Source: a virus (lineage: Duplodnaviria > Caudoviricetes). Taken from it: a stretch of 64,000 nt of DNA. The translations under genes were made by a program, and so were the position numbers. Below, piece by piece: positions 9,680 to 34,200 of the stretch. Positions within the stretch are counted from its first letter, which is position 1, and each line of letters begins with the position of its first letter. The notes below the pieces were generated by a model, which did not search any database, was not told the DNA's origin, and was given only the letters and a program-made list of their open reading frames with translations. The DNA lies in the IMG/VR virus record IMGVR_UViG_3300031993_000004, positions 64,001-128,000 of that record; one strand, 5' to 3'.

Positions 9680-10195
9680 ATGTTTGACATGGAAAACCAT
9701 GAACTGATCGCAAAGTTCATAAATGAAAGAAAACCAGAGTCGTACGTTGCCCCGTTATACATCAAAATGTATAATGAACGATACGACCTTTGCGAAATCA
9801 CACAGATTGACAATTTCACACCTTCTGGTTGTAAGATTGGATTCGGTGCGCACTTCTCGCTGATCGACAAATATTCATTCCCGGATAATATGCTGCGCGC
9901 ATTCGAACCGGTTGAAGCATTCACAACATTTGACGAAGAACGGAATCTGAGTGATCGTTATATCATTATCGAAACAGGTATCGTTGATTTGTCAATTGAT
10001 TCTGAAACCGGTACATTTGCAGACAAACAATCCGACGGTACTGTGGTGGAAATTACGCAACGGGTTGTTTACAATAAAGCTGTATTGGAGCAAATGGAAT
10101 ATTACCAGAATATGTTGCTTGATTTCCTATCCAAACAGCAAGAAGAAATCCGTAAGAAACGTTTGGCTGCAGCAATGTCTGAATATGCCTCTTGA
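9680..10195 (+). CDS. hypothetical protein
   Basis: 171 aa, GAAAGGAAG RBS, TATATAT motif upstream. Confidence 0.7.
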   Translation: MFDMENHELIAKFINERKPESYVAPLYIKMYNERYDLCEITQIDNFTPSGCKIGFGAHFSLIDKYSFPDNMLRAFEPVEAFTTFDEERNLSDRYIIIETGIVDLSIDSETGTFADKQSDGTVVEITQRVVYNKAVLEQMEYYQNMLLDFLSKQQEEIRKKRLAAAMSEYAS

Positions 10196-12622: not shown

Positions 12623-13454
12623 TGCCGAATTAATGCTGACTGCTATCCGTCAGGATGGTGAACGACTCCGGCACAAAAGATTTCATCTCAAATCTTTTGA
12701 TATGCCTGACATCAAAAGACAGTTTCCTGATGCGTACGAGACAAAGATCGGATACCAAAGACTGATCGAAGAAATCGGGCGGATCGAGTCGATCCGGGAT
12801 TTCGATGAACAGCATATTGACGATTATAAGAGAATCTCTGATACGGTCGATAAGATCGTGCGGGAACTGGATTTCACGGCCATTCAGACCGGTGATCACA
12901 TCCGAAATTTTGAATTTCCGGTATCTATTACCAGCGGCCTGGATGTGGATGACGAAGAATCTACACCCAATACGCTGACTGGTGTCATGTACCGGATCCG
13001 GCAAATCACATCCTGTAATTCTAGATCGGTATTTTATGCACCAGCCACATATTGTGGAATGGTGTTTGAATTTTCAATTCAGCATAAATACACAGCACTG
13101 AACGAACAGACCATTGTCAATTCCATATGGACAAGAGAAAAATATGACATCACTGGAATCAAGTTACTTATTTCAGCGATCCCGCTTGACAAAAGCGCAT
13201 TTCTTGAAGAGTGGTTGCCTGCACTGAATCTGGAGAAGAACTTGGGCTCAAAGGGCGCAAGGGTCATTTTTGCAATTGATCCGGAACGGGGAACCCTTGA
13301 ATACCCTGATAAGAACAGGCTTATCATTCCGGCGTGGAATTACTATAACCAGTCTGTTGCTGAAGGCCTGATTGACAACGCTGTAAAACATATCAGTGAG
13401 TCGTGCCTGGATGTTTTCTTTCCGAAGCCCGCATCTGAACCCGTCACCGAATAA
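12615..13454 (+). CDS. hypothetical protein
   Basis: 279 aa, AAGGAGG RBS. Confidence 0.7.
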   Translation: MHDAELMLTAIRQDGERLRHKRFHLKSFDMPDIKRQFPDAYETKIGYQRLIEEIGRIESIRDFDEQHIDDYKRISDTVDKIVRELDFTAIQTGDHIRNFEFPVSITSGLDVDDEESTPNTLTGVMYRIRQITSCNSRSVFYAPATYCGMVFEFSIQHKYTALNEQTIVNSIWTREKYDITGIKLLISAIPLDKSAFLEEWLPALNLEKNLGSKGARVIFAIDPERGTLEYPDKNRLIIPAWNYYNQSVAEGLIDNAVKHISESCLDVFFPKPASEPVTE

Positions 13455-13476
13455 AGAACCCCAAGGAGGAATCCAA

Positions 13477-14616
13477 ATGCCAGCCAAATACCTCAGACCA
13501 TCAAAACCGACATATTATCTAAGCTTTGCTGAAACCGCAGCAAGACGCTCCACTTGCTTGAAACGACGATATGGTGCGGTCATCGTTAAAGATGACCGCA
13601 TCATTTCAACCGGATACAATGGAGCGCCGCGTGGTCGGATAAATTGCGTTGAGATCGGGTGTCCGCGTTTGAATGTTCCAAACAATACAGAATACTCAAC
13701 ATGCCGGTCCGTCCATGCCGAAGCAAACGCAATGTTACACGCCGAATATACTGACATGATCGGATCGACATTATATCTGTATGGGTATGATGTCGTGAAA
13801 GACGAGCGTGTTAAAGATTGCGAACCATGTCCCATGTGTAAGCGCATGATCATTAATGCGCAAATCAAAGATGTCGTTGTATATGACAGAGATCTGAATG
13901 TCAAAACCTTTCATGTGAAGGACTGGACATTACCATGCAACGACGATTCCATTCCTGAGAAAGAACCGGAACTCTCCGATCCGGCGACGACGCCGTCCGA
14001 AGATACTCTGGACGTTGTTCTCATGAATAACGTTGAATCATCTAACGATGAAACAATACCATTTCTCGCGTCATCAAAACATCTTGAAGAGCTGATTGAG
14101 AAAGATCCCCAAACACAGATAACCGACGTGGATATATTGATGCGGTGTTACACGTTGTACCGCGATTCATTACGGTTTGCAATGTCAAATACGAACATGC
14201 CATTAGCATTGACAGAACTTTGTGTCTGCTTCTATGCTGGACACGGACATGTGGGCCTTGTAAATCAGAGTGCAATATCCAACTTCATGCTTGATTATGC
14301 GGGTAAAACGTTGCCTGCATATATTGATACATGTGTGCGAAATGCATTGTACAAATGCAGTCGATTCGAATGTGTCAATAACCGGTTGAGCTTTAGTTAT
14401 AATGGTAGATGGGGCGAAATCAGAAAGACAATTGATGCAACGGCTTACAAATATTTGCTTCCGGCAATTCGCGTCAGACGTGCGTTGTTACATGCAGGCT
14501 TCCTGGACGCAAATACCGAGAATCTATTGCTGAAGCTTCAGCGATATCTGAAGGAACGAAATGCGTTCCACGAAAGCACGCCGTGGGAACCCGGCATCCA
14601 ATATCCGATTTACTGA
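13477..14616 (+). CDS. dCMP deaminase with C-terminal extension
   Basis: ARRSTCLKRRYGAVIV..GYNGAPRG..HAEANA..PCPMC zinc-deaminase motifs in first ~155 aa; start moved to ATG 13477 after AAGGAGG. Confidence 0.88.
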   Translation: MPAKYLRPSKPTYYLSFAETAARRSTCLKRRYGAVIVKDDRIISTGYNGAPRGRINCVEIGCPRLNVPNNTEYSTCRSVHAEANAMLHAEYTDMIGSTLYLYGYDVVKDERVKDCEPCPMCKRMIINAQIKDVVVYDRDLNVKTFHVKDWTLPCNDDSIPEKEPELSDPATTPSEDTLDVVLMNNVESSNDETIPFLASSKHLEELIEKDPQTQITDVDILMRCYTLYRDSLRFAMSNTNMPLALTELCVCFYAGHGHVGLVNQSAISNFMLDYAGKTLPAYIDTCVRNALYKCSRFECVNNRLSFSYNGRWGEIRKTIDATAYKYLLPAIRVRRALLHAGFLDANTENLLLKLQRYLKERNAFHESTPWEPGIQYPIY

Positions 14617-14630
14617 TACAAATACTTGCA

Positions 14631-14652
14631 GTGCCCGCCATATGGCGGGCAT
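14631..14652 (+). promoter_or_regulatory. GC-rich hairpin immediately upstream of pentamer array 1
   Basis: TGCCCGCCATATGGCGGGCA palindrome without a T-tail. Confidence 0.5.
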
Positions 14653-14653
14653 T

Positions 14654-16697
14654 GTAATGTAATGGTACGGTATGGAAGAGTTCGGTAGGGTCTTGCTCCG
14701 TTCTGTGTGGGTGGAGTGCGCTGTAGTTCTGTTCCGTGTAGGTGAAGTGCACTGTAGTCCTGTTCGGTGCAGGTAAAGTCTGGGATGGTTCTGGTAAGTT
14801 TAGCAATGTGATTGCACGGTTAGGCAAACTGCCGCATTGTCTAGCTACGTATTGTGACTGTGGTGCTGCGGTTTCGCGATGTAACCTGTGGTATCGTATG
14901 GGCATGGTATCGTTGAATTCAGTAATGATTCGTTCGGCGATGTGATTGTGATGCGGTGTACCATACCGTCGCGTGGAGGTAGTGTGGGGCAGAGTGGTGA
15001 CGTGCATCGTTATGATATGTGAAGCAACTGTAAAGAGTCGTGGAGTATCGCTATGTCAAGGCAAGGCACAGTATTCTCTCGTCATGTCTCGTGGCGTCAA
15101 TGTAGTGTAGTATAGTGTGCCGTGGCGTAAAGGTACAGCGGGGCTTTGTCAAGTAATGTAACGGTAAAGTGGCGCGGTGTAAGGTCACATCGCGTTTTGT
15201 CACGTTGCGTTTCGGTAAAGTAATGTATTGTCTTGTATCGTTGGGGTGAGGTCCGGTAAGGTGCGTTATCGTAAGGCGGTGTGGCGTACAGTAAAGGTAC
15301 TGTAATGTCGGGCGCTGTCACGTTACGGCAAAGTGAATTCTGGTATGGTGACGTAACGTAAATGTTTCGTAATGTTTCATTTAGCAACGTAATGGCATAG
15401 TGAAGTCTGGTATGGTGCCGTGATGTAATGGCAAAGTGCTGTGAAGTTATGTATGGTAAAGGTATGGTTGCGTCCGGTAAGGCGCAGTAGTATATTGTGA
15501 CGTGAATGTAAGGTAAAGTGGGGTATGCTTATGTGAAGCAGCGACCCAGTAATTCAGTCACGGTATGGCGACGTAACGTAGAGTATCGTTACGTGGGGTT
15601 ATGGCAAAGTGTTGGTTAGCTTCGTACAGCTCAGTCATGCAACAGTGAGGTTTGGCAGGGTTGGGTAAAGTCATGTAAAGGCAGGGTGAGGTGTGGCAGA
15701 ATAACGTGTGGCAATGTCACGTAACGGTGAAGAATGGTGCAGTGTTGAGTTGTTCCGTTAAGTGATGGCACGGTGTTGATTAGCTTCGTACAGCTCAGTC
15801 GCGCAACAGTGAAGTGAAGTAGCGCACGGTGGAGCTATGTAAAGGCAAGGCGGGGTGTGGCGTTGAACTGTTGAGCTCTGTCACTGTGAGGTGAGGCGTG
15901 GTAGCGAGCGTATGGCAATGCCTCGTAAGGTATTGGTATGGTATGGCTGTGTCTCGCAGAGTGATGGTTAAGTGATGTTGTGTTGAGTGTTGTATCGTTT
16001 GGCCATGGCATGGTGTCGTATCGTATGGTCACGGTCGGTTCTGTAAAGGCAAAGTACGTTGTCGTCTGGTGGAGTCTCGTGGTGTCAATGTAGTGTAGTG
16101 CTCAGCGATGTCAGGTTACGGTAACGGTACGGTGCTGTTTGGTAGAGCTTAGTTTAGTAAAGGTACAGCATGGTTATGTACTGATTGATTGAGTAATGCG
16201 CTGTAATGGCATGGTTCGGTCCGGTCCTCTCCTGTTATGTAATGGCATGGTGGAATGTTGTGACGTAATGCCACGTAAGGTCTTGCAACGCAATTGTACA
16301 GCATTGTCTGGTCTAGTGCGGCCAAGTGCTGTCTGGTCTCGGTATGGTATATTCCAGTCACGATCTTTGCGGTTAGGTGTTGTGTTGTAAAGGTGCGGCA
16401 GGGTTGCGCGAGGTGCCGTTGCGTAATGCTTCGTGAGGTAATTGTACAACATTGTCTAGTTTTGGTATGGCGTAGAGACGTTCCGTAACGGTGATGTGAT
16501 GTGTAGTTCCGTCGGGTATAGTAAAGGTATGGTTCTGCGAGGTGTTCTGAAGTATTGTGAGGTCAGGTCTAGGTAAGGTAATACATCGTAAGATGCAGAA
16601 CTGTCTGGGGATGGTACAGCACATCAAAGTTATGTACTGCAAAGTTGTGTCTCGGCGCAGCTCAGTGACGATCCGCTTTGTGAAGTAACCTGAAGTT
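14654..16697 (+). repeat. non-coding degenerate pentamer (GY-NNN) array 1, candidate guide-RNA array
   Basis: From 15122: GTGGC GTAAAG GTACA GCGGG GCTTT GTCAA GTAAT GTAACG GTAAA GTGGC GCGGT GTAAG...; ~2 kb with no credible ORF. Confidence 0.9.
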
Positions 16698-16710
16698 CAG
16701 ATTTGAAAAA

Positions 16711-16741
16711 AGATGGGGCGCATCACGCCCCATCTTTTTTC
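16711..16741 (+). terminator. intrinsic terminator ending array 1
   Basis: AGATGGGGCG-CATCA-CGCCCCATCT plus TTTTT. Confidence 0.8.
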
Positions 16742-16749
16742 TTGAATTT

Positions 16750-16766
16750 CATATATATATCATTAT
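16750..16766 (+). promoter_or_regulatory. putative early promoter motif
   Basis: CATATATATATCATTAT. Confidence 0.55.
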
Positions 16767-16836
16767 AGGGAATGGGATTTCAAAATCTCATTAAGCTTTA
16801 TTCCGTACGGAATCGAATCAGAAAGTGAGGAGAAAA

Positions 16837-18255
16837 ATGAGCAACCCAATCAAAAAGCGCATTGAAAAAATTGCTGACACATGCGCAATGTCAGCAGAGC
16901 ACTATCCGTTGCTGGAAAACTGGTTTCAGTGCACAGCAGAAACTGCTCGCGAGATTGAACGCTCGCAAATCAAATCTCTCGAAGAATTTGACAGCGTGGC
17001 ACTGGCATTGTCGGCACTGAGATCGGACATTCCAATCATTGACCGGTCCACTTTGAATGAAGGTATCGATGCATTACGGTCTGCATGCGCCAGATATTCG
17101 TCAGCCACCGATGAATTCTCTCCGTTCAACGCGTTAATTGCGCAGTCGTGCAATACGTTGATCGTTGTGGGTGAAGAGATCATCGGAGCACTCACCAATC
17201 TCAAAATTCTTGAGATTGCACTCGGCATCGGCACAATGGTCCCACGTGATGCTCCGGAAGAAGACGTGGCGACAACGGAACAGGAAAAAATCGAACAGAT
17301 TTGTTCCGCACCGGTACCGGCTGAAATCACCGTCACTTTACCGGCATCAGATAAGACTATCGTTCTTTCACAATGTGATGCAACTATTCTCGAACCCATC
17401 TTTGCCCAGAGAGAACAGGAACTGCAGGAGCCGATTCCGGAAGAAGACGCGGCGGCAACGGAACAGGAAAAAATCGAACAGATTTGTTCTGCACCGGCTG
17501 ACGAATGTGAGGAAAACAGTGGCTATACTGTTTTCGGAATTCCGATCGAGCAAATCGGAGTATCCCAGGAAGAAATCAAACGTGTTACAACAGATATTCC
17601 AGATCCGCCGAAGCCTAAGAAGAAACCCAATGAACCACGTAAAGTGGGAGTGCTGGATGTCCCGACTGGGTTTACCGCGCTCAAAGTTCCGGGTTTCCCG
17701 GATGACAGATTCATGTTGTCTGTAGATAATCAAATCGTTGACCGTCGGACAGGGCGGAAGATCAAAGCAACTCTCAGACACGGGGTTGAATATGTCAAGC
17801 TTTTCCATCCGAGAGATGAACATGGGGAACAACAGTTTGTCGAGTTCCCGCTCGCGGATCTGATCTCAAAATCTACATCTACAGCGGCATTGCCGCTTCC
17901 GAAACCTGCAATGACGGAGGAAAAAGACGACACATTTGTGTACGTCGATTGGTTTCCAGGAATACCTGCTCGGAAATATAAGGTATATGCCTCAGGAAAG
18001 GTATACGATACTGTACACAAAGAGTTTATACCCTATGACAGGAAGAACGAGTCTATTCGACTTACAGATTCGGATATCGAATCCCGCACGATTGGGGTTC
18101 ATGCGGTTGTCAAGGCGCTGAAACGGCAGTCACTCGTATGGCAGGCTTTCCATAAAGAATACCGGAATCAATCCAGGGTGTACATCTCTTTCAGAGATGG
18201 AAACAGACAGAATTGTGCACTCGACAATCTGTATATCGGAAGATCTGCAAAATAA
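16837..18255 (+). CDS. protein with NUMOD4-like motifs and degenerate HNH domain
   Basis: LKVPGFPDDRFMLS and VDWFPGIPARKYKVYASGKV (NUMOD4-like); LVWQAF...ISFRDGNRQNCALDNL (HNH_3-like, His absent). Confidence 0.6.
   Translation: MSNPIKKRIEKIADTCAMSAEHYPLLENWFQCTAETAREIERSQIKSLEEFDSVALALSALRSDIPIIDRSTLNEGIDALRSACARYSSATDEFSPFNALIAQSCNTLIVVGEEIIGALTNLKILEIALGIGTMVPRDAPEEDVATTEQEKIEQICSAPVPAEITVTLPASDKTIVLSQCDATILEPIFAQREQELQEPIPEEDAAATEQEKIEQICSAPADECEENSGYTVFGIPIEQIGVSQEEIKRVTTDIPDPPKPKKKPNEPRKVGVLDVPTGFTALKVPGFPDDRFMLSVDNQIVDRRTGRKIKATLRHGVEYVKLFHPRDEHGEQQFVEFPLADLISKSTSTAALPLPKPAMTEEKDDTFVYVDWFPGIPARKYKVYASGKVYDTVHKEFIPYDRKNESIRLTDSDIESRTIGVHAVVKALKRQSLVWQAFHKEYRNQSRVYISFRDGNRQNCALDNLYIGRSAK
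17253..17497 (+). repeat. 62-bp intragenic direct repeat (17253-17314 and 17436-17497)
   Basis: Both encode PEED(V/A)A(T/A)TEQEKIEQICSAP; 3 nucleotide mismatches. Confidence 0.9.
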
Positions 18256-19305: not shown

Positions 19306-19376
19306 GGGTTCGTAGTTTAATGGCAAAACAACGGTCTCCAAAACCGTTGATTGGGGTTCGATTCCCTGCGGACCTG
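19306..19376 (+). tRNA. tRNA-Trp(CCA)
   Basis: GGGTTCG/CGGACCT acceptor; ACGGT-CTCCAAA-ACCGT; TTCGATT T-loop. Confidence 0.9.
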
Positions 19377-19474
19377 TCAAAATAAAAGGGAGTTAAGTCG
19401 TGGCGGTTTGAATCTGCTTTTAAGGTTCGGAGTGTACCGCACCACGCTAGCCCAAAGTCCATAAACACTCATCT

Positions 19475-19558
19475 GCTGGTGTGGCGAAATCGGCAGACGC
19501 AGTAGACTCAAAATCTACCGGTGGCGATACCATGTGGGTTCGAGTCCCACCACCAGCA
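19475..19558 (+). tRNA. tRNA-Leu(CAA)
   Basis: GCTGGTG/CACCAGC; GTAGA-CTCAAAA-TCTAC; long variable arm. Confidence 0.93.
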
Positions 19559-19560
19559 TT

Positions 19561-19645
19561 CATCACAGGAGATGAGAAGTTCCAGCACTTCTTCGTGGTC
19601 CCTCAATGAAACTGCGTAGTTTAAGGGTAAAACCCCCTGTGTTGA
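19561..19645 (+). ncRNA. circularly permuted tRNA-like RNA (YrlA-like topology)
   Basis: T-arm and 3' acceptor strand precede 5' acceptor strand and D-arm; closed by CACAGG/CCTGTG. Confidence 0.45.
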
Positions 19646-19706
19646 TTCAAGGCGACATATCATGGTCTGGTGGTGGCAAAAGATGACACAGAAAAGGAGA
19701 AACGGT

Positions 19707-20066
19707 ATGGAACTGAAAAGACAAATGCCCGAGCAGCATGATGTTGTGACATTCTATATTAACAGCGATGAGTTTAACACCATGATGCTCAATCATACTG
19801 CAAACGAGTTTGTTGCGCAACGACTCAATGGCATTGCGATCAAAGAGAATGATCTGATTGTCATATATGTCGATCGCGGACAAACGCACAATCTGTCGGC
19901 AGAGCTGATGAAACAATTGATGAAATCCCTTGTCGATCAGCTTGGCTGCAAAGTTATATGCATGCCAGCTGTCGCACATCTCTCGGTTGAATCCAAAAAG
20001 GATTTCATTAATATGCTGAGAGAAACTATCATATATCTTGAAAAAGGCGATGACGAAAATAATTGA
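19707..20066 (+). CDS. hypothetical protein
   Basis: Start moved to ATG 19707 after AAAGGAG. Confidence 0.7.
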   Translation: MELKRQMPEQHDVVTFYINSDEFNTMMLNHTANEFVAQRLNGIAIKENDLIVIYVDRGQTHNLSAELMKQLMKSLVDQLGCKVICMPAVAHLSVESKKDFINMLRETIIYLEKGDDENN

Positions 20067-20204
20067 GAGCGATTGGCGATAGTGCGTGAATCGCGGTGGT
20101 ATGTTGTGTGGAACTAATTTCCAGGGGAGTTTCGATTCCAGACGAGGATCCTGGAGAAATAGAATGTCGAGGCCGTAAGATCTAGAAGCACATCATATTG
20201 TCAT

Positions 20205-20347
20205 CATTACCTCGTATGCAAGTGGTCAAAAGCAGTCTACCTTTGGTAGGTAGAGAAGACTCTCCACCCGGGATATCCGGCCGGGTATCGGGTTAAAACT
20301 CGCAATCGCGAGGGGGAGTACGCGGGTTCGAATCCCGCCGGGTAATG
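20205..20347 (+). ncRNA. enlarged tRNA-like RNA
   Basis: CATTACC/GGTAATG closing stem, D-like AAGTGGTCAAA, T arm GCGGG-TTCGAAT-CCCGC, ~60-nt branched variable region, no 7-nt anticodon loop. Confidence 0.55.
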
Positions 20348-20367
20348 TTGCTCAATTCTATATAGGC

Positions 20368-20440
20368 CGGGGTGTAGCGCAGTTGGTAGCGCGCCTGCTT
20401 TGGGAGCAGGATGCCGCAGGTTCGAATCCTGTCACTCCGA
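20368..20440 (+). tRNA. tRNA-Pro(TGG)
   Basis: CGGGGTG/CACTCCG; CCTGC-TTTGGGA-GCAGG. Confidence 0.95.
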
Positions 20441-20448
20441 TTTCCCAT

Positions 20449-20532
20449 GCTACTGTGGCGAAATTGGCAGACGCAAGAGACTTAAAATCTCTCGGTGGAT
20501 ACATCTTGTGGGTTCAAGTCCCATCGGTAGCA
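20449..20532 (+). tRNA. tRNA-Leu(TAA)
   Basis: GCTACTG/CGGTAGC; AGAGA-CTTAAAA-TCTCT. Confidence 0.92.
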
Positions 20533-20587
20533 TTCAAAGGCACTTACAGCAATTCTCAAATAATGATGAATGAACGATGTGCCTTGA

Positions 20588-20665
20588 GGTGAAGTAGCTC
20601 AGGTGGTAGAGCGTCGGGAGTGTAACTCCTGCAGGGATGTTAGGTTCGAGCCCTAACCTTCACCA
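20588..20665 (+). tRNA. atypical tRNA, anticodon probably GTA (Tyr-reading)
   Basis: GGTGAAG/CTTCACC; canonical D and T arms; CGGGA-GTGTAAC-TCCTG with non-standard spacing and no long variable arm. Confidence 0.55.
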
Positions 20666-20782
20666 TCCACGTCCTGTCGGAACCTGTGTACGCAGGCCAA
20701 TTCCACAAATAAAAGGATATACGGCGCCAAATGACCGTGACGGTCATGTATATCCCTCTCGGCAGGCTCCGTGGTGCCATAT

Positions 20783-20860
20783 GCCAGTGTAGCTCAGTTG
20801 GTCGTTAAGAGCAGCTCCTTCATACGGAGAAGGTCGGTGGTTCGAATCCACTCATTGGCA
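20783..20860 (+). tRNA. tRNA-Met(CAT)
   Basis: GCCAGTG/CATTGGC; CTCC-TTCATAC-GGAG; Met versus Ile2 not certain. Confidence 0.8.
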
Positions 20861-20872
20861 TTCATTTTTTCA

Positions 20873-21450
20873 TCAATTGAGTAGTAAACAAAAGCCCATT
20901 CAAAGGATGGGTAAGCTTTACCAAGGAAATCGTTGCAGTGCACAAGGATAAGAGTATTGCGATATGCTGCATTCCTAGTATCGGACGAGTACGAAACCTT
21001 GGTTGTGTCATTGGCGCTATTAAGAAGCGTCTTCCCGAAAAGAGCCTCAACGTAAGATCCAGTAGAAGAATCCATAGTCTGGTGCATATCTCGGTCTGTG
21101 GATTGCGATGTAACTGGTGGGAAAAGGATGATACGGGAATCTCCTGAGTAGTGGCGAGCGAAAGGGATCCACAAGAGAGCATGGGGACACGATCCGAACA
21201 CGTGCTTGTGAGTGGTCAAAATCGCCCTGGAAACGGGCATGGGCAGTTATGAAAGATGATGAAAAGATGGCGACGGTTGTGTGCAGTCCAGACCATTTGG
21301 TTGGCGTGGGATACTAAGGAATCACCAGACTGCATATGAACCTAGATTGTTGTGTAAGCGGGAACGCACTGGCCACCTAGCGAGCCAGGTATACCGGAGG
21401 ATTCCGGCGAACATAATTGAAGTGAGACGCTCTATAATCTACACAACAAT
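20873..21450 (+). ncRNA. large structured ncRNA, ROOL-like
   Basis: ~580 nt, non-coding, between tRNAs; TCAATTG (20873) pairs TAATTGA (21414), crossing the 11-bp helix ATTGTTGTGTA (21346)/TACACAACAAT (21440); AGTA/GAA motifs. Confidence 0.55.
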
Positions 21451-21451
21451 T

Positions 21452-21527
21452 GGGGCTGGGCAGGAACACACGTGGCCAGGGTGGCGTTACGACGTTGCCT
21501 TACGGGTTCGAATCCCGTCACAGCTCT
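21452..21527 (+). ncRNA. degenerate tRNA-like element
   Basis: GGGGCTG/CAGCTCT stem and T arm ACGGG-TTCGAAT-CCCGT, but no canonical D or anticodon arm. Confidence 0.45.
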
Positions 21528-21530
21528 TCT

Positions 21531-21603
21531 GACTCGGTAGCCAAGAGGCAAGGCAAGGGAGTGCAAATCCTAGATGCGTCGTGTTCGAATCCGACCCGAG
21601 TCT
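21531..21603 (+). tRNA. tRNA-Cys(GCA), slightly atypical
   Basis: GACTCGG/CCGAGTC; GGA-GTGCAAA-TCC; bulged T stem. Confidence 0.7.
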
Positions 21604-21610
21604 TTTTTTT

Positions 21611-21686
21611 GGGGTATTAGCTCAGACTGGATCAGAGCACCTCCCTTCTAAGGAGGGTGTCGTGGGTTCGAATCCTACATACCCCA
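21611..21686 (+). tRNA. tRNA-Arg(TCT)
   Basis: GGGGTAT/ATACCCC; CCTCC-CTTCTAA-GGAGG. Confidence 0.93.
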
Positions 21687-27305: not shown

Positions 27306-27307
27306 CT

Positions 27308-28093
27308 GTCTAGTTTGGGTAAAGTGCTGCGAGGCGCAGTATGGTCGTGGTGTTGCACGGTCCAGTATGACATTGTTTTGTCGAGCAACTGTATAGCGGT
27401 GTATTGTCAGGTTTTGGTACTGTGGCGTTAGGTTCAGCACGGTCTCGTCTGGTACTGGTTTAGTATTGCCGAGCAGCGCAACGTATAATGCAGTGACGGT
27501 GTAGTCATGTCTGATGTGGTCGAGTCAAGTCAAGGTTAAGCTGCGTTCGGTGCAGGTGCCGTTCAGTTGTGGTGTAGTCGAGGTTTGGTAAAGTACTGTA
27601 CAGCTAAGTATCGTCAATGTGTTGTCAAGAACGGTTCCGTGATGTTAAGGTTAGGATACGTGCCGTATGATACCGTGAAGGTATGGTGCAATGAGCTCAA
27701 GTGTTGTTATGACACGTGCATTTCTGTAAAGGTTAAGCTCTGTGACGCATTGCATCTCGTGATTGTAAAGGAAAGTGTCATGCAGAACAGTGCAGCGTAG
27801 TTTCTGTGCTGTTATATCTTGTCCAGCGTGGTTAAGGTCGGGTACGGTCCCGCATTGTTCTGTTTGGTAATGTAATAGCGTAGTACAGTTAGGTTGTGTT
27901 ACGTAGAGCAACTGCATAGTGATCTGATGTAGGGTCGTGTCACGGTCGGTGATGTAATGTACAGCATAGGTATAGTTCCGTATAGTATCGTTCAGCCATG
28001 TTCAGTTGCGGTAGAGTAAAGTTGAGCGACGTGTGGTAGGGTAACGGTGGAGTGTTGTGTTGTCACGTGAAGTCAAGTAATAGTAATGGTAAA
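27308..28093 (+). repeat. degenerate pentamer (GY-NNN) array 2
   Basis: GTCTA GTTTGG GTAAA GTGCT GCGAG GCGCA GTATG...; same grammar as array 1; starts 2 nt after the upstream stop. Confidence 0.9.
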
Positions 28094-28146: not shown

Positions 28147-28163
28147 CATATATATATCATTAT
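28147..28163 (+). promoter_or_regulatory. putative early promoter of the RAMP gene
   Basis: CATATATATATCATTAT, identical to the motif at 16750. Confidence 0.6.
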
Positions 28164-28268
28164 GATGATCCGGAGACAAATTCTCACCCCCACCCGGATC
28201 AAAAACAAACAAATTCACAAATTCAATGGGTTTAAAGTGGGGGACAACCCGGAAAAGGAGCGCATATT

Positions 28269-29033
28269 ATGGCAAACAAGAAAGACGCTGCAGAAGCAGC
28301 AGCAACAACCACCACGGTCGAGAAGAAGGCACCTGCGAAAAAGAAGGCAAAATCTGATGGGCCTCAAAAGTATTACATGACGACAGTTGAGGTAACTTTC
28401 ACGAACGAGCTTCTGGCCACCAACAGCGCGGATCCGGATATCTATTCCGCGTATCTCGCGTCACTCGCAAGTGACGAAGACCGCAAGGCGGAACTCGAGC
28501 GTCTCGGCCTCGCAGAGGTTGATGAGAAGGGTATGACGGTTTTCCTCAGAAACAAGGAAAACCCGATGATCCCTCAGCTCAAGGCATATACATGGCTCGG
28601 GTTCCTCAAGGCCCGCAGCCGTGCACAGGCAAAGATCGACGGAAATCCGATCGTTGGAATGACCGCATATATCAAAGAAATCGATGACCGCATTGCGGTA
28701 TCTCCGAAATTCATTGATCTGGAGCTCCCGGAAGGAGCAGCTGTTGACACTCTGCAGCGTCCGCTTCGTGCGCAAACCATGCAGGGTGACCGTGTCGCTC
28801 TCGCAAAGTCTGAGACTGTTCCGGCTGGCACAAAGTGCCGCTTTACCTTCAGAACCGAAACTCTTGAAGGTATGAAGCTTGTTGAAGCCTGCCTCAGATA
28901 CGGCGCTATCCATGGTACAGGCCAGTGGAGGAATGCCGGTTACGGCACCTTCACATATAAGATCATCGATAGATGGTCGGAGGTCGAAGAGCCGATCGTT
29001 CTGTCTGAAGAGGACTTCCCTGTCCGCGCATAA
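28269..29033 (+). CDS. stand-alone Cas7/Csm3-like RAMP-fold protein (Vipr-like candidate RNA-guided effector)
   Basis: VEVTFTNELLAT (beta1), PQLKAYTWLGFLKAR, SETVPAGTKCRFTF, C-terminal G-rich loop YGAIHGTGQWRNAGYGTF; AAAAGGAG RBS; flanked by pentamer arrays. Confidence 0.75.
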   Translation: MANKKDAAEAAATTTTVEKKAPAKKKAKSDGPQKYYMTTVEVTFTNELLATNSADPDIYSAYLASLASDEDRKAELERLGLAEVDEKGMTVFLRNKENPMIPQLKAYTWLGFLKARSRAQAKIDGNPIVGMTAYIKEIDDRIAVSPKFIDLELPEGAAVDTLQRPLRAQTMQGDRVALAKSETVPAGTKCRFTFRTETLEGMKLVEACLRYGAIHGTGQWRNAGYGTFTYKIIDRWSEVEEPIVLSEEDFPVRA

Positions 29034-29080: not shown

Positions 29081-29097
29081 TCTATGCTACCACAATG

Positions 29098-29425
29098 GCT
29101 TAACAGTAACGGCACAGTTTCGCGGGGTCAAGTGCAGTCCAGTCGTGGTATGGCATTGTTTACTAATGTCTCGTGGAGTTTTGGCATGGTGTGGTTTCGC
29201 TGTGTGGCGTGCTGTCAAGGCAGGGTATTGTACTATGACGCATTGTCGCGTATTGGTTACGTAATGTGAGACATGGTTATGTGTCGTAAAGGCATTGTGG
29301 AGTACGGTAATGTTGTGCTTAGTCATGTTATGGTATAGCAGCGGTTGGTGAGGTGTTGCTGTGTGGCGTTTCGGTATTGTGATGTTCCGTGTCGTGGAGC
29401 AGAGTAATTGTGACATCACTGTATA
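29098..29425 (+). repeat. degenerate pentamer (GY-NNN) array 3
   Basis: GTAACG GCACA GTTTC GCGGG GTCAA GTGCA GTCCA GTCGTG GTATG GCATT...; directly downstream of the RAMP gene. Confidence 0.88.
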
Positions 29426-29677: not shown

Positions 29678-29751
29678 GGGCCTCTAGCTCAGACGGTTAG
29701 AGCAGTGGACTCATAATCCATTGGTCCAGGGTTCGAGTCCCTGGGGGCCCA
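29678..29751 (+). tRNA. tRNA-Ile2/Met(CAT)
   Basis: GGGCCTC/GGGGCCC; GTGGA-CTCATAA-TCCAT; body resembles lysidine tRNA-Ile2. Confidence 0.85.
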
Positions 29752-29794
29752 TCATCTATATAATTAGCGAAGGGGAGTACAACATAATATTTGA

Positions 29795-29880
29795 GGAGAG
29801 GTGTCCGAGTGGCTTAAGGAGCCAGTCTTGAAAACTGGTGATACGGAAACGTACCGTGGGTTCAAATCCCACTCTCTCCG
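29795..29880 (+). tRNA. tRNA-Ser(TGA)
   Basis: GGAGAGG/TCTCTCC; CCAGT-CTTGAAA-ACTGG; long variable arm. Confidence 0.95.
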
Positions 29881-30376
29881 TCAAACTCTAAGACGTCTGA
29901 TTTCGCAGACGCGTGCTTCCTTTTCGGCTTTAAACCGCCTGGCATGCCGATTCATGACCAGGTATAAAAAACAGTCCGTGTGTATCGAAACCGGCCAATG
30001 ATCTTAGGCCGGATCGCGCCCGCCGCCTGCAGATCGCGGCATTGAGCTCTTATCTCCGTGAGAGTTGGCGCTACTATGTGAGAGACACGGACTACCGCTG
30101 GGGTTTACATAAATGCGGTTTACCCAGCACCAGCTTATTGCCAGAGGCAACAGCTGCCGGCTTTGCTGTTGTCTTTGCTCAGATAAGGGCCTAGTATTCA
30201 GGAATTTACAAAGCGGGTTATGCTTATTGAGGTTTCAGAGAGCGCCGCAATGGATGCGCTTGAAGATGTCGTTCATCTCTAAATCCAATGTGTTCATGTT
30301 GCGGAAGCACAACAACAACCACAACGACCACAGATGCTCGGCTTCCCCGCTAAAGAATATGAAAAACGCTCAATTT

Positions 30377-30448
30377 GCACGTGTCGTACAGTGGGCAGTA
30401 TACCAGCCTTCCAAGCTGGGGATGAGGGTTCAATTCCCTTCACGTGCT
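30377..30448 (+). tRNA. tRNA-Gly(TCC)
   Basis: GCACGTG/CACGTGC; CCAGC-CTTCCAA-GCTGG. Confidence 0.92.
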
Positions 30449-30722
30449 TCGACGATGATGGTTTGATTTCTGACATTTACGGGTTATGTATTAACCGGTC
30501 GATGTATTGACAGATACATATGGCAGAATGATACTATCACCGTCGCACTCCGTATAAACCGTAGGGGTAGAGGCACCCACCCCTGCGGTTTTGCTCTTTA
30601 CTGTAAATTCTTGCAGTTTGTCCATTCTGCAAGGATCTGCATGAAGATACCTCCAGACGCGCAGGAGTTCTCACGCTAGCTAAGAGGACTCCTGCACTGC
30701 GTCGCCTGAGAAAGGAGAAACT

Positions 30723-30989
30723 ATGAATGATGATCTCAAAAAATGCTTGACAAGCGTTGCAGCATTGATCGCAATATTCATTCTCTGCTCTGCGCTCGGA
30801 TCATGTTGCACAGAGCAGGATATACGTGATTACACGTATATCTATGTCGATGGACAACAATACATGACATCAGATATTGTTGACATAAGTTATATCCCTC
30901 TCCGCTACGGCAATGACGCCGTGACATTCAAGCTCAAAGACGGAACTGTTATACGCACACAATCTAATGATTATACTCTCAGCAATTAA
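30723..30989 (+). CDS. small membrane/lipoprotein-like protein
   Basis: 88 aa, AAAGGAG RBS, N-terminal hydrophobic helix ending LGSCC. Confidence 0.65.
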   Translation: MNDDLKKCLTSVAALIAIFILCSALGSCCTEQDIRDYTYIYVDGQQYMTSDIVDISYIPLRYGNDAVTFKLKDGTVIRTQSNDYTLSN

Positions 30990-31001
30990 GCGTTTCCATA
31001 T

Positions 31002-31073
31002 TGGAGTATGGCCAAGCGGCAAGGCATCAGACTTTGACTCTGACACGCGCTGGTTCGAATCCAGCTACTCCAA
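31002..31073 (+). tRNA. tRNA-Gln(TTG)
   Basis: TGGAGTA/TACTCCA; TCAGA-CTTTGAC-TCTGA. Confidence 0.93.
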
Positions 31074-31250: not shown

Positions 31251-34200
31251 TTATATCTGAGACCATTCATGAGATTCCTGATCGTATACTTTCAGATCAA
31301 CACGACCAGTTGTTGTGTTCTCATCCATGAGCAACATCTTGTAATTTACTGGGTCGCCATCTTCATTCAACACATCTGTTGTGTTTCCGACGTTTGCACC
31401 GCGGAGTATTGACATTCTGACAGGCGTGAATTCACGTCCGTCATCAGGAGCACTACTCTTCAGCTTGTATGTTCCTGTCGCAGGAATGCTTGGGAATACA
31501 AGTCTCCAAGAACCTCTTGGTGCTTTGGATGTAAGTACGGATCCACCGGCATTGTCAGAAAAGAGCTTCACGAATTCCGGTTGCTGATAGATCTCTGATG
31601 TAGTATCCGCAGTAGAATATGCCGGAGAATTCGAATACACATTGTATATTGAATGTGCTGATACAGAACCAGCATTTTCAATAATTGATGCATGTGTGGT
31701 TCCAGCCGCGTCGCAAACCTCAACGGATTCCCAACTCAGCTTTTCACGTACAACATACAGATCACGTGTATGTGCATTCACATAATACTTTTCATGCACA
31801 TCAGACATTGGATCGAACATCCATACCATCGGACCAACATGTGGAACATTCCACATGATCGTTGTTTGTGTATTGGTATGAACATATTCCGGAGATACCA
31901 GATCATTGCCAGGAAGCATGGACGTTTTGTCTGTTGACTGGAGATTGTTCAATGAACGATGGACGACGCCATATTCAAATTCAAAATTCAATGAATCTGA
32001 TGGATCAATCCATCTCCAGAAAATATATGAATCGAATTGGTTTCCACCATTTTCTCTTATTTTTTCCAGAACGGCGCCTTCGCTCTTACCGTATGCACTC
32101 AATCTCCGAAGACCGCGACAATACATCTTGTTGATGTCGATGACAGTGAGATCATCATACGTGTCACTTCCAGACGATGCAGCTGTCGATGGAACATGCA
32201 CTGGTGTACAATTTGTATCGACAACATTAATCGATGATGCGGTTGTGAACGCTTGCATCATGATATCCGCGGCATATGGTGCCATTGGGTTAACAGGAAG
32301 ATTACGCGCCGATGGAAGAATGGAATTCATATATGAATCACGGAGTGATACTTCACCAGTGACCGACGATGTATCGGACGCATATGATTGCGCAACCAAC
32401 CGTTCCTTGACCCACTGATTGTTTCGTCTGAGGACAAACCAGACACCTTCAAAGTCAGAAACGAACGCAAACAAATCGGAGAACACAGGACCTTTCTTAG
32501 GAAGCAGATCTGCACAATTCGCGATCCTCAGAATAACGCGAAGACCGCGTCCACTTACAACACCACCGGTATCAAGCGGAGATGTTCCATAAGCCTGTGT
32601 CAAACCAGAACCTGTGTCAATTGAAGCCAGATCAAAGTTTGCCAGATTGATCAGTGTGCTAGCATCATCATTCGACGCTAATTCTGCGCTGACAACAGAC
32701 CCACTTGCAGTAACAGCCGTGACTTGATATGTGAACGAGTAACCACCGACAACGATGATACCCATCGAACCGACACTGTATCCAGTACCACCTTCGAAGA
32801 TATGTGCAATGGATACATCAACCGGATGAACGCCGCGATTCAGATTCGTTGTTTCTCTGAAATCATTGTGGTTCATCAGATCCACCTGATTCAAAAGCTC
32901 CATGGAATCGAAGACGAATTCATTAGATTGTGTATCCGGCTCTCCCGTATAGATCGGTGTACCGGTTACGTCCAATGCAGTTGGGCGGACCCATCTATTC
33001 TTCGAACCATTGTACAGATAATTCTGGTCTTTCTCTGTAAAGGTTGCTTCTGACCGAATGTATTTTTTGTCAACAACAGATGTTGGTGCAACACCGTGAA
33101 TGCCGGAAAGTTGCATGATGGATGTTGGAATATCACAGATACGCGCAAGCGTACGTTCCGGTTTCGGATTCTTTGCAGTTGCATTGTTCTGATACGTCGC
33201 AGAGTCATTTGACAACACGTATACACGTCCGATCTCGCTTGTATCGACATCGTCTGATGTATACGGCGCGACTTTCTCTGTGATAGAATTTTCATCAATT
33301 GCAACAACCAATCCTGTACCGGTTGTGAATGTGTGATACCACCACGGAAGTCCGTCCGCCATAAGTCCGGTTCCAGTTCCGGCAAGCTGTGACGTTCTCG
33401 CTTCCATAAGTTCTTCTTGTGTAAAGTTTTCGTCATACACCCATTCTGTCGTGAGATGAGAACCTGTCAACAATGATTTGTCATACACGGCTTCGTATGC
33501 AGATCCTGCATAATACCCAGGAAGCAAGATGTATTTCTGTTCTTGTTGATCCCAGATATACACATTTGGCTCGTTTGTCGCTTTGTATATTTTTGATTCA
33601 TCGGGGATGATCAGTTCCAATTCTGATGAATCCGTAAAGAATTCTCCACGTTCACTATCATAGAAACCGTAAATCATTTCGTCAACATCATCTTCCGATG
33701 AATCAACATACAATGGGTTCAATTCTGTTGCTGCTCCTGTCACAGGATCAACTGCAGTAATCTCGACGAGTGTTCTGCTTCGAGATCCATTATTGAACTT
33801 CACCCAAACACGGTTTGGATTGGTGATATGTCTGTACATATCACCGCTCAGAAGTGTGTATGCCGTATTATATTGGTCATACCTGTATGATGCCGATGAC
33901 GGAATGTCAATATACAGTTTACCTGGATCAGCTGTGATCAACGTTGTATGTGCCGCCTCTTCGTAAAAGGCTCCATTGTAGAAGTATCCTCTGACAACAA
34001 CACGTTCATCGAGTTGCTGGTTATAACCGGCACCGCCAGACACGATTGAGATTGCATCCAACTCATATGAACCGGGATGGAAATTGTCATCGTACGAACG
34101 CTCAACACCAGGATCAAACAACAGACCTGCAATTTGCCGTGTTGATTGATCACTCGGTCTGTAGAATGGCGTGTCGTGTGCCGCATACACCGATAAGTGT

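What the first reader, a model, noticed from the sequence alone, without database searches (positions are those of the whole stretch)
15122..15480. Higher-order grammar: a 6-nt phase-slip unit punctuates the arrays every ~5-9 pentamers
Seen: GTGGC [GTAAAG] GTACA GCGGG GCTTT GTCAA GTAAT [GTAACG] GTAAA...GTTGC [GTTTCG] GTAAA...[GTAAAG] GTACT GTAAT GTCGG GCGCT GTCAC [GTTACG] GCAAA...[GTAATG] GCATA...[GTAATG] GCAAA...[GTAAAG] GTATG. The hexamers are biased to GTAANG followed by GYA and occur in all three arrays, giving modules of roughly 26-51 nt. Inference: they mark guide boundaries, processing sites or filament-length limits, analogous to CRISPR repeats.
Basis: partly seen in the sequence, partly recalled or inferred. 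Interest (0 to 1): 0.78.

Follow-up and report, generated by a model that had tools for sequence, protein, structure and literature searches.

The report
Phage VIPR guide array with punctuation
The regularly spaced six-base units are real: they divide the guide-RNA arrays of a giant gut/rumen phage's VIPR system (a CRISPR-related DNA silencer first described in 2026) into about 90 separate guides. One decoded guide spells a conserved motif of a rival phage's DNA-binding gene and stops exactly at the six-base unit.

Summary
Observation confirmed. The three same-strand arrays (14654-16700, 27307-28085, 29090-29410) consist of G-Y-N-N-N units: 518 five-base and 85 six-base steps, and only one four-base step. 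Of 85 internal modules, 69 have 6-10 units (31, 36, 41, 46 or 51 nt); random spacing predicts 21. The junction has a consensus, G-Y-a-A-h-K | G-Y-A. The grammar recurs in nine independent related phage loci.

This is a VIPR system (bioRxiv 10.64898/2026.04.26.720920). The lone Cas7-fold gene at 28269-29033 is the Vipr. The arrays are YNNNG-type vrRNAs, and the layout fits that preprint's "staggered arrays".

Module 15246-15296, read by the published rule (two bases read, one skipped) without its final six-base unit, matches 47 IMG/VR contigs exactly. All lie in one frame of the motif EPKAINGGT of a Gp2.5-like ssDNA-binding protein, with the skipped base at the wobble position. With the six-base unit included there are no matches. 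Four control guides gave at most one independent hit each. The target sits in Ruminococcus/Oscillospiraceae prophages. Two further modules and three relatives' modules hit neighbouring genes of the same element family.

So the six-base unit is an unread boundary between guides. RNA ends are untested.

The scan found the same punctuation before on other DNA (e1-5356326, e1-5346725, e1-5485896). This is a new member of a known kind.

The parts
14654..16700 (+). vrRNA array A1, about 57 modules. It lies 11.5 kb upstream of vipr. The finding (15122-15480) sits inside it.
   Evidence: Period-5 GY signal. Segmentation into 341 five-nt and 54 six-nt units.
27307..28085 (+). vrRNA array A2, about 24 modules, directly upstream of vipr
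29090..29410 (+). vrRNA array A3, about 10 modules, directly downstream of vipr
28269..29033 (+). vipr gene: a 254-aa lone Cas7/RAMP-fold protein with G-loop GTGQWRNAGYG
   Evidence: AlphaFold2 model with pLDDT 83.7. Best Foldseek matches are type VII Cas7 and Csm3, E = 1e-8. Invariant G216, Q219, W220, R221 and N222 in 32 relatives. No Pfam, PHROG or PADLOC family.
15122..15480 (+). The stretch given in the finding. It holds ten six-nt junction units, at 15127, 15158, 15209, 15240, 15291, 15322, 15358, 15389, 15425 and 15456.
15246..15290 (+). Decoded guide of nine five-nt units. The read bases GA CC AA GC AT AA GG GG AC spell EPKAINGGT of a Gp2.5-like ssDNA-binding protein of rival prophages.
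   Evidence: 47 exact IMG/VR hits and 35 prokaryote-genome hits, all in one frame with the skipped base at the wobble position. Target family PF10991, E = 7e-78.
15291..15296 (+). Six-nt junction unit GTAAAG of that module. It is not read.
   Evidence: Including it gives 0 hits. The next target codon is CCN in all 82 rival-element loci held, against AA in the guide.
27350..27390 (+). Probable second decoded module: seven read units plus junction unit GCAACT. It runs antisense to the motif RKLMGVT of a DUF2800 PD-(D/E)XK exonuclease.
   Evidence: 13 of 14 read bases in 7 loci, in wobble phase. PF10926. Random guides reach 7 or more hits in 0.3% of draws.
16573..16613 (+). Probable third decoded module: seven read units plus junction unit GGGATG. 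It matches the sense strand of the motif KNITATL of a D5-like primase-helicase.
   Evidence: 13 of 14 read bases in 3 homologous loci, in wobble phase. D5_N and DUF5906.
16705..16741 (+). Strong intrinsic terminator that closes array A1
   Evidence: 16-pair stem followed by a T run
14633..14650 (+). Hairpin between the dCMP deaminase gene and array A1. No T run follows it.
   Evidence: read from the sequence
16750..16767 (+). 18-nt motif TCATATATATATCATTAT, copy 1. It lies after A1 and before the 476-aa ORF at 16825-18255.
   Evidence: The motif occurs only twice in the 277.6-kb genome. A near-identical core motif (TTCATATATATATCATT) sits at both equivalent places in relative L001.
28147..28164 (+). 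The same 18-nt motif, copy 2. It lies after A2 and before vipr.

Best explanation
The three arrays are the guide-RNA (vrRNA) arrays of a phage VIPR system of the YNNNG, 'staggered' kind.

Each unit is G-Y-N-N-x. By analogy with the solved SUSP1 complex, one Vipr protomer would bind each unit, hide the G and Y, and present the two N bases. These pair with target DNA while every third target base is skipped.

A module is one guide. It has 5-9 read pentamers, closed by one six-nt unit (consensus G-Y-a-A-h-K) whose own bases are not matched to the target. The extra base moves the next G-Y out of register by +1. A filament phased on one module therefore finds no G-Y where it needs one in the next module. 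This sets the guide's length without any repeat, hairpin or ribozyme.

About 90 guides are carried in total. At least one, and probably three, are aimed at the replication genes of temperate phages of Ruminococcus/Oscillospiraceae: the ssDNA-binding protein, the DUF2800 nuclease and the D5-like primase-helicase. This fits VIPR's published role in silencing rival mobile elements.

Shown here: the grammar, its conservation, the Cas7 fold, the target matches and where they stop. Inferred: protomer binding, filament termination by the register break, cutting or trimming of the RNA at the junction, and silencing.
For: Grammar
- +1 slips outnumber -1 slips 85 to 1 under equal penalties.
- 81% of modules have 6-10 units, against 26% on average (at most 39%) in 60 simulations and about 25% (21 of 85) under a geometric null.
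- The junction consensus is statistically distinct from ordinary units.

Conservation
- Relatives L001, L002 and L004-L007 (Vipr about 44-72% identical) show +1:-1 ratios of 37:1, 35:0, 16:2, 35:5, 22:0 and 27:1. L003, which encodes the same Vipr protein as L002, gives 43:1.
- They share the same junction consensus.
- The short arrays of human-gut phages with 38-41% identical Vipr follow the same grammar.

Protein
- Cas7 fold.
- No Cas1 in the genome.
- No CRISPR-like array or other tandem repeat in the arrays beyond two short local ones (31-nt, 2.6 copies; 15-nt, 1.9 copies).

Targets
- Module 15246 without its junction unit gives 47 IMG/VR contigs and 35 prokaryote loci. All are in frame on EPKAINGGT of PF10991 proteins, and the skipped bases vary as wobble bases do.
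- With the junction unit included there are 0 hits.
- Four control guides of 18 read bases gave 0, 1, 1 and 1 independent hits, none in wobble phase. A 20-base control gave 0.
- Matching is 0-50% in flanking junction units and neighbouring modules.
- Modules 27350 and 16573 hit two other genes of the same element family at 13 of 14 read bases, in wobble phase.
- Relatives' modules hit the same ssDNA-binding gene (KYSVSLIIP, 17 of 18 read bases in 34 loci), the same nuclease (TMTVIDF, 13 of 14 in 13 loci) and a third, unidentified in-frame site (L001, SKCAVSN; two exact hits).

Modules as units
- Three paralogous pairs are 83-88% identical over exactly one module, while their neighbours are 47-63% identical.
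- One strain of four carries a 31-nt single-module insertion.

Published mechanism and the staggered-array description: 10.64898/2026.04.26.720920 and 10.64898/2026.04.26.720927.
Against: - No RNA data exist for this phage. Transcription of the arrays, RNA ends and binding by Vipr are all untested.
- Only one module has an overwhelming target. The two others rest on 13 of 14 read bases in homologous loci, which are not independent.
- About 70 modules have no target yet. Seven exact-match scans and local searches of six 45-60-kb element windows found nothing further that was clear.
- About 18% of modules are shorter than 6 units, and a few slips are 4, 7 or 8 nt, so the grammar is not strict.
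- In one relative's guide the junction unit's AA happens to match the next codon, AAN.
- I could read only the legend of the preprint's fig. S18, not the figure. Equating this layout with 'staggered arrays' is therefore an inference.
- A substitution count between two strains did not single out positions 3-4 as the most constrained. The rates at positions 1-5 were 6%, 15%, 4%, 11% and 11%.
Confidence: 0.82

Rival explanations
1. The junction is above all a sequence-specific cleavage site for a host or phage RNase, or for Vipr itself acting like Cas6. The +1 shift would be incidental. This does not exclude the best explanation.
For: The junction has a conserved consensus beyond the shift itself: A at position 4, no G at position 5, K at position 6, then G-Y-A. 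It holds in this phage and in six relatives. The preprint's legend speaks of 'processed vrRNAs'.
Against: - The consensus is weak. Only 26% of six-nt units are GTAANG and 61% fit G-Y-N-A-H-K.
- The +1 shift is present at almost every boundary: 85 six-nt boundary units against three of another length (4, 7 or 8 nt).
- No hairpin or ribozyme is present. Rfam finds only tRNAs in the window.
Confidence: 0.3
2. The whole array is coated by one continuous filament that bulges one base at each junction. Modules would be cassettes of evolution and of target choice, but not physically separate particles ('beads on one string').
For: Nothing here shows cleavage. A1 looks like a single transcription unit of about 2 kb, bounded by a hairpin and a terminator. 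The structure preprint states that vrRNA length dictates filament length and that some vrRNAs reach 30 repeats.
Against: Target matches stop at the junction, and neighbouring modules match nothing nearby. Adjacent modules therefore cannot engage one DNA together. The strict lower bound near 6 units suggests that each module must work on its own.
Confidence: 0.12
3. The slips are neutral replication-slippage scars in a degenerate pentanucleotide repeat, or the tract serves at the DNA level (origin, packaging or nucleoid site) and has no guide function.
For: None beyond the repeat-like look of the tract.
Against: - The slips are directional, 85 to 1.
- Their spacing is bounded.
- The junction consensus is conserved across phages whose Vipr is as little as about 44% identical; the +1 grammar itself recurs down to 38%.
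- The arrays always lie beside a Cas7-fold gene.
- One module decodes to a protein motif in 82 rival loci, in wobble phase.
Confidence: 0.01

Closest known systems
VIPR systems with 'staggered' vrRNA arrays and YNNNG-type repeats (bioRxiv 10.64898/2026.04.26.720920, text, methods and legend of fig. S18)
   Same: - A lone RAMP protein in a phage.
- Same-strand pentanucleotide arrays beside it.
- Consecutive guides offset by one base, with the end of one marking the start of the next.
- No tail and no ribozyme between guides.
- Targets read two bases at a time with one base skipped, the skipped base at the wobble position.
- Rival mobile elements as targets.
   Different: - According to the preprint, only the ribozyme-interspersed and single-vrRNA layouts were confirmed by small-RNA sequencing, not the staggered one.
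- The texts I could read do not state the quantitative rules found here: 5-9 read units plus one unread six-nt unit, the G-Y-a-A-h-K | G-Y-A consensus, and slips that are +1 only.
- This phage is unusually rich in guides: about 90, in three arrays, one of them 11.5 kb from vipr.
- I could not establish which of the seven VIPR types it belongs to.
Type II VIPR of Escherichia phage SUSP1 and the Pseudomonas fulva prophage (same preprint; structures in 10.64898/2026.04.26.720927; biology in 10.64898/2026.10.15.759431)
   Same: The same target code (NN plus a one-base skip) and a Cas7-like protein with a G-loop containing W-R. Binding of one protomer per pentamer is assumed from those structures and is not shown here. 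Targets lie in essential genes of rival elements, on either strand.
   Different: - SUSP1 vrRNAs are separate RNAs of about 100 nt with 9-16 strict GGY-NN repeats and a structured 3' pseudoknot tail.
- Here the first G of GGY is not conserved (22-25% G against 33% background).
- Guides are shorter, 5-9 read units.
- They have no tail and follow each other directly.
- The G-loop reads Q-W-R where SUSP1 has D177-W178-R179. D177 contacts the first G. This correspondence is inferred and was not aligned.
Class 1 CRISPR-Cas crRNA with its Cas7 backbone (for example Csm3 and type VII Cas7)
   Same: The protein fold (Foldseek E = 1e-8), periodic interruption of the guide-target duplex by a thumb, and many guides carried on one precursor.
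   Different: - No repeat-spacer array and no Cas1; none of the 10 ORFs scanned near the arrays is a Cas family.
- The period is 5 nt with only 2 bases read, rather than 6 nt with 5 read.
- Guides are separated by a one-base register shift rather than by a 25-40-nt repeat cut by Cas6.

Membership tests
VIPR system | A stand-alone RAMP (Cas7-like) Vipr protein: RRM core plus G-loop, with no other cas genes | tested here: met
   Model pLDDT 83.7. Best matches are type VII Cas7 and Csm3, E = 1e-8. The G-loop GTGQWRNAGYG has invariant G, Q, W, R and N. No Cas1 in the genome, with the control search ringing in 7 of 14 genomes. Neighbouring ORFs carry no Cas families. The thumb domain was not examined separately.
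VIPR system | Flanking same-strand tandem pentanucleotide repeats with a conserved G(G)Y and hypervariable NN | tested here: met
   G is 93% and Y 95% at unit positions 1-2, and positions 3-5 are variable. The first G of GGY is not conserved, so this is the YNNNG variant named in the preprint's methods.
VIPR system | Targets recognised by the NN bases with one skipped base per unit, the skipped base falling on codon wobble positions | tested here: met
   Module 15246 gives 82 loci, all in one frame, with varying third codon bases. Two more modules and three relatives' modules are in wobble phase. Only exact or near-exact matches could be searched.
VIPR system | No self-targeting. Targets lie in competing mobile elements. 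| tested here: met
   Matches to the phage's own genome are no better than shuffled guides under eight reading rules. The genome has no PF10991 match, though this search rang in none of its control genomes and is weak evidence. Targets lie in integrated elements (probable prophages) of Ruminococcus and Oscillospiraceae genomes.
VIPR system | An accessory vap gene next to vipr | tested here: inconclusive
   No recognisable vap lies beside vipr. The 476-aa ORF at 16825-18255 shares a genome-unique 18-nt upstream motif with vipr and follows array A1. It has only a weak HNH hit, E = 2e-5, and seven relatives.
VIPR system | vrRNAs are expressed and co-purify with Vipr. The complex represses transcription. 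| not testable with these tools
   No RNA or protein data exist for this uncultured phage.
VIPR 'staggered' array architecture | Consecutive vrRNAs follow each other directly, offset by 1 nt, with no tail or ribozyme between them | tested here: met
   85 +1 junctions against 1 of -1. Rfam finds no hammerhead or other RNA family in the arrays. The comparison rests on the legend of fig. S18, because the figure itself is not held.
CRISPR array | Direct repeats of about 23-50 nt separated by unique spacers, with cas1/cas2 for adaptation | tested here: not met
   Tandem Repeats Finder finds no such repeat, only a 31-nt local duplication of 2.6 copies and a 15-nt one of 1.9 copies. No Cas1.

The most novel reading that the evidence does not exclude
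A one-base register shift plus an unread six-nt unit may be a complete punctuation system. It would let a single 2-kb transcript be partitioned into dozens of independent Vipr-guide particles with no repeat, hairpin, ribozyme or dedicated processing nuclease. Filament phasing alone would define each guide, and unprotected junctions would be trimmed, or left as linkers so that the guides stay tethered. That would be a new way of making multiplexed guide RNAs, and a simple design rule for engineered multi-guide VIPR arrays.
Probability: 0.3. Interest if true: 0.7.

Novelty: new member of a known kind. Interest (0 to 1): 0.5.

Why it matters
VIPR was described only in 2026. Its 'staggered' arrays appear in the preprint only as a supplementary figure, and they were not among the layouts confirmed by RNA sequencing.

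This locus supplies a large natural data set: about 90 modules here and more than 170 in relatives. It yields explicit rules:
- a guide is 5-9 read pentamers;
- it is closed by one unread six-nt unit;
- the register moves by +1 at each boundary.

It also gives a decoded, highly conserved target, the EPKAINGGT motif of a Gp2.5-like ssDNA-binding protein. That target ties an uncultured 278-kb phage to Ruminococcus/Oscillospiraceae hosts and to specific rival prophages.

The rules can be tested directly at the bench. They would help in calling guides in other VIPR loci, in predicting targets and hosts, and in building multi-guide arrays.

The kind of system and the idea of staggered guides are already published, and this scan has met the same punctuation in other genomes.

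Tried and rejected
1. My first idea was a long RNA that sponges a TRAP-like ring protein. I dropped it once the Cas7 fold and the VIPR preprints fitted.

2. Reading positions 3-5 of each unit as contiguous codons. Stop codons are only marginally depleted (17 observed against 26 expected, p = 0.013). No excess of open modules was found, so this is not a triplet code.

3. Self-targets. None were found under eight alternative reading rules.

4. Relatives' guides against this phage's genome. They do no better than shuffled guides, so these jumbo phages do not obviously target each other.

5. Exact IMG/VR scans of full modules with the junction unit included gave 0 hits. This led to dropping that unit. 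Four more guide patterns of 18 read bases and one of 20, all without the junction unit, returned 0, 0, 3 copies of one sequence, 1, and 2 copies of one sequence. None was in wobble phase, so I count them as chance.

6. Substitutions per unit position between two strains with the same Vipr. Position 3 was the most conserved (4%), but positions 4 and 5 were alike (11%). The sample was too small to define the read positions this way.

7. An apparent block replacement of modules between strains turned out to be point changes plus a 1-nt deletion that moved the called slips. It is not cassette exchange.

8. RNA folding of 15122-15480 gives z = -3.6 against shuffles. I do not read this as structure. 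GU dinucleotides spaced every 5 nt can pair with each other in register, and shuffling destroys that spacing.

9. All window modules and relatives' modules with at least 7 read units were scanned against six 45-60-kb windows around the target gene in R. callidus and R. flavefaciens. No further clear targets emerged. The number of modules with any near-hit equalled that of shuffled controls.

Full report
**What is there.** The window is bases 64001-128000 of a 277.6-kb uncultured phage genome. Its features include tRNA clusters, primase-like and dCMP deaminase genes and giant ORFs. Three intergenic tracts on the + strand are G-rich and C-poor: 14654-16700, 27307-28085 and 29090-29410. In them GT recurs every 5 nt. 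GT-GT autocorrelation is 2.9x at distance 5, with side peaks at 11 and 16. The rest of the window is flat. The genome has no other such tract on either strand.

**Checking the observation.** I segmented the arrays by dynamic programming into units beginning G-Y, with equal penalties for +1 and -1 slips.
After training it gave 518, 85 and 1, plus one 7-nt and one 8-nt step.
- The unit is G (93%), Y (95%), N, N, N. The base before the next G is not G-enriched.
- Ten six-nt units fall inside 15122-15480, and all three arrays have them.
- Of 85 internal modules, 69 have 6-10 units (31, 36, 41, 46 or 51 nt). A geometric model predicts 21. Sixty simulated arrays with random slips, run through the same segmentation, never exceeded 39% in that range, against 81% observed.
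- The junction differs from ordinary units. A at position 4 is 67% against 30% (p = 9e-10). G is almost absent at position 5. The sixth base is G in 75% or T in 19%. The next unit is G-Y-A in 65% against 36% (p = 2e-6).
- GTAANG accounts for 26% of six-nt units, whereas GTAAN accounts for 7% of pentamers.

**What it is.** The 254-aa ORF at 28269-29033, between arrays A2 and A3, has no Pfam, PHROG or PADLOC family. It has 308 relatives at E <= 0.001 in metagenomes. It folds with confidence (pLDDT 83.7) into a Cas7/RAMP fold. The best matches are type VII Cas7 and Csm3 at E = 1e-8. It carries an invariant glycine-rich loop with Q-W-R-N.

The genome has no Cas1, and Tandem Repeats Finder sees no repeat-spacer array. 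A note from this scan on the same genome (e1-5666112) used the term 'VIPR-like'. That led me to three 2026 preprints. They describe VIPR systems as follows:
- a lone ancestral RAMP, Vipr, coats a vrRNA made of GGY-NN pentamers, one protomer per repeat;
- the protein hides GGY and presents NN;
- the complex binds double-stranded DNA while skipping every third target base, usually the codon wobble base;
- it silences rival mobile elements.

The first preprint names alternative repeats (NNNGG, YNNNG, NNNNG). [quoted passage not shown] S18). It says that the ribozyme-interspersed and single-vrRNA layouts were confirmed by small-RNA sequencing. It does not say this of the staggered layout. The present arrays fit the YNNNG, staggered description.

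**Conservation.** I fetched loci around Vipr relatives that are about 44-72% identical to the window's protein.
- All have same-strand arrays next to the gene.
- All show the same grammar under equal slip penalties. The +1:-1 ratios in L001, L002 and L004-L007 are 37:1, 35:0, 16:2, 35:5, 22:0 and 27:1. L003 encodes the same Vipr protein as L002 and gives 43:1.
- 70% of 174 pooled modules have 6-10 units, and the junction consensus G-Y-A-A-n-G | G-Y-A recurs.
- Human-gut phage records of 44-85 kb with 38-41% identical Vipr carry short arrays of 3-5 modules built the same way.

**Modules are units of evolution.**
- Within A1, three pairs of modules are 83-88% identical over exactly one module. 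The background is 48 +/- 7.5%, and the flanking modules are 47-63% identical.
- Among four strains encoding the identical Vipr protein, one carries a clean 31-nt insertion (six units plus one base). It is flanked by the direct repeat GTGTAG, in otherwise about 95% identical sequence.

**Decoding a guide.** I turned modules into patterns by the published rule: the two bases after G-Y, then one wildcard.
- The full 10-unit module at 15246-15296 gave no exact match in IMG/VR.
- Without its last, six-nt unit, the pattern GANCCNAANGCNATNAANGGNGGNAC matched 47 contigs.
- All 47 lie in one reading frame of the same motif...TRFSYL.V.-EPKAINGGT-PKYSVSLIIPK... The wildcard bases are the third codon positions, and they vary among hits.
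- The protein is a Gp2.5-like ssDNA-binding protein (PF10991, E = 7e-78; phrog_112). It sits next to a DUF2800 PD-(D/E)XK exonuclease.
- In the prokaryote collection the same pattern hit 50 loci. Thirty-five are this motif, in Ruminococcus flavefaciens (three strains), R. callidus, other Ruminococcus, Oscillospiraceae and Clostridia genomes from rumen and gut.
- The other 15 are unrelated hits in miscellaneous phyla. By my rough estimate, chance would give about 17 in 596 Gb.
- Four other 18-base guide patterns gave 0, 1, 1 and 1 independent hits in IMG/VR, none in wobble phase. A 20-base pattern gave 0.

**Where the match stops.**
- The codon after the match is CCN in all 82 rival-element loci I held (47 IMG/VR, 35 prokaryote), while the junction unit offers AA.
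- The unit before the module, which is the previous junction unit, matches at 40%.
- Neighbouring modules do not match the gene's flanks at any offset from -9 to +9 (at most 39%).

**Further targets.** I scanned every module, minus its junction unit, against the 82 rival loci (718 kb).
- A2 module 27350 matches 13 of 14 read bases in seven loci. It is antisense and in wobble phase, on RKLMGVT of the DUF2800 nuclease.
- A1 module 16573 matches 13 of 14 read bases in three loci. It is sense and in wobble phase, on KNITATL of a D5_N/DUF5906 primase-helicase.
- Random seven-unit guides reach 4 or more hits in 0.7% of 600 draws and 7 or more in 0.3%.
- In both cases the flanking junction units do not match.
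- Relatives' modules hit the same family. L007's nine-unit module spells KYSVSLIIP, immediately after EPKAINGGT in the same gene (17 of 18 read bases, 34 loci). L002's spells TMTVIDF of the nuclease (13 loci). L001's spells SKCAVSN (two exact hits).
- Over six decoded modules, the junction unit's two bases match the next codon at 4 of 12 positions, which is chance level.
- The phage's own genome gave no PF10991 match, a weak negative because the search rang in no control genome, and no self-target.

**How it most likely works.** A module is one guide: 5-9 read pentamers closed by one unread six-nt unit.

The extra base shifts the next G-Y out of register. A Vipr filament phased on one module would then meet G-G or T-G where its pockets need G-Y; in SUSP1 the Y pocket excludes purines. 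The filament would therefore end there.

The read part covers 15-27 bp of target, with 10-18 specified bases. This is shorter than the 9-16 repeats of SUSP1 vrRNAs. The lower bound of six units equals one turn of the binary filament reported for SUSP1. That link is my inference.

It is not known whether the RNA is then cut or trimmed at the junction, or stays as a string of particles. The conserved junction consensus may serve a nuclease or the terminal protomer. The targets found so far suggest that the phage silences the replication genes of temperate phages resident in its Ruminococcus/Oscillospiraceae host. This is inferred from the published biology and from where the targets lie.

**Comparison and novelty.** The system meets every VIPR feature I could test, except for a recognisable vap gene. 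Its layout matches the staggered, YNNNG description, so it is a new member of a known kind.

What I did not find stated in the texts I could read:
- the quantified grammar;
- the finding that the six-nt unit is not read;
- the decoded target family.

This scan has already reported the same punctuation on other genomes (e1-5356326, e1-5346725, e1-5485896). That reduces the surprise further.

**Limits.**
- There are no RNA data.
- There is one overwhelming target and five supporting ones.
- Most guides remain undecoded, because public collections could only be searched for exact matches.
- The preprint's figure was not available.

Noticed in passing
window 16750-16767 and 28147-28164; L001 about 153-169 and 9899-9916: The 18-nt motif TCATATATATATCATTAT occurs only twice in the 277.6-kb genome. 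One copy follows array A2 and precedes vipr. The other follows array A1 and its terminator and precedes the 476-aa ORF at 16825-18255. A relative with 72% identical Vipr has a near-identical core motif (TTCATATATATATCATT) at both equivalent places. This looks like a shared promoter or operator and makes the 476-aa ORF a candidate VIPR accessory (vap) gene. That ORF has a weak C-terminal HNH hit and only seven relatives.
   Followed up: partly
window 16393-16443; L121 6117-6142 (R. callidus ATCC 27760): Module 16393 matches 17 of 18 read bases inside a 425-aa ORF (L121 5056-6333, minus strand) whose N-terminus looks dockerin-like by eye (no family search was run) and which lies about 24 kb from one of that genome's Gp2.5-like SSB genes. 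The skipped bases are not at wobble positions. My rough estimate is that such a match arises by chance about 0.02 times over all modules tested, so it could be chance, a host target or a decoy site.
   Followed up: partly
G001 (R. callidus ATCC 27760) C1: 1668718-1669239, 1827861-1828391, 1890979-1891518: This one genome carries three copies of the targeted ssDNA-binding protein family within about 220 kb. Only one copy has the exact EPKAINGGT target. Another reads EPKSIKGGA, with two mismatches to the guide; the third gave no match within two mismatches.
   Followed up: partly
window 15097-15387 (-), 16174-16452 (-), 16373-16642 (-); L001 8523-8885 and 9005-9517 (-); L005 8845-9519 (-): The arrays contain long open frames on the opposite strand. 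Public gene callers have annotated these as 120-224-aa proteins in relatives. They are almost certainly artefacts of the C-poor repeat.
   Followed up: no
window 15122-15480: As RNA, the array folds better than dinucleotide shuffles (z = -3.6). This is probably because GU dinucleotides spaced every 5 nt can pair with each other in register. It is not evidence of a conserved structure, and it is not explained further.
   Followed up: no
L002/L003 6243-7337: Relatives carry a tubulin-family gene (PF00091, PhuZ-like) about 3 kb upstream of vipr.
   Followed up: no
window 31251-35522 (-) and 35532-39437 (-): Two giant ORFs of 1423 and 1301 aa, of unknown function, lie just downstream of the VIPR locus. 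Similarly sized giant ORF pairs sit at the same position in relatives L001, L004, L005 and L007 (homology not checked).
   Followed up: no
window 13396-14616: A 406-aa protein has a dCMP deaminase domain at its N-terminus (residues 23-256 at most) and an unassigned C-terminal part (from about residue 165-256). It lies directly upstream of array A1.
   Followed up: no
window 19306-21686 and 29678-31073: Two clusters hold 12 tRNA genes in total. The second follows array A3.
   Followed up: no
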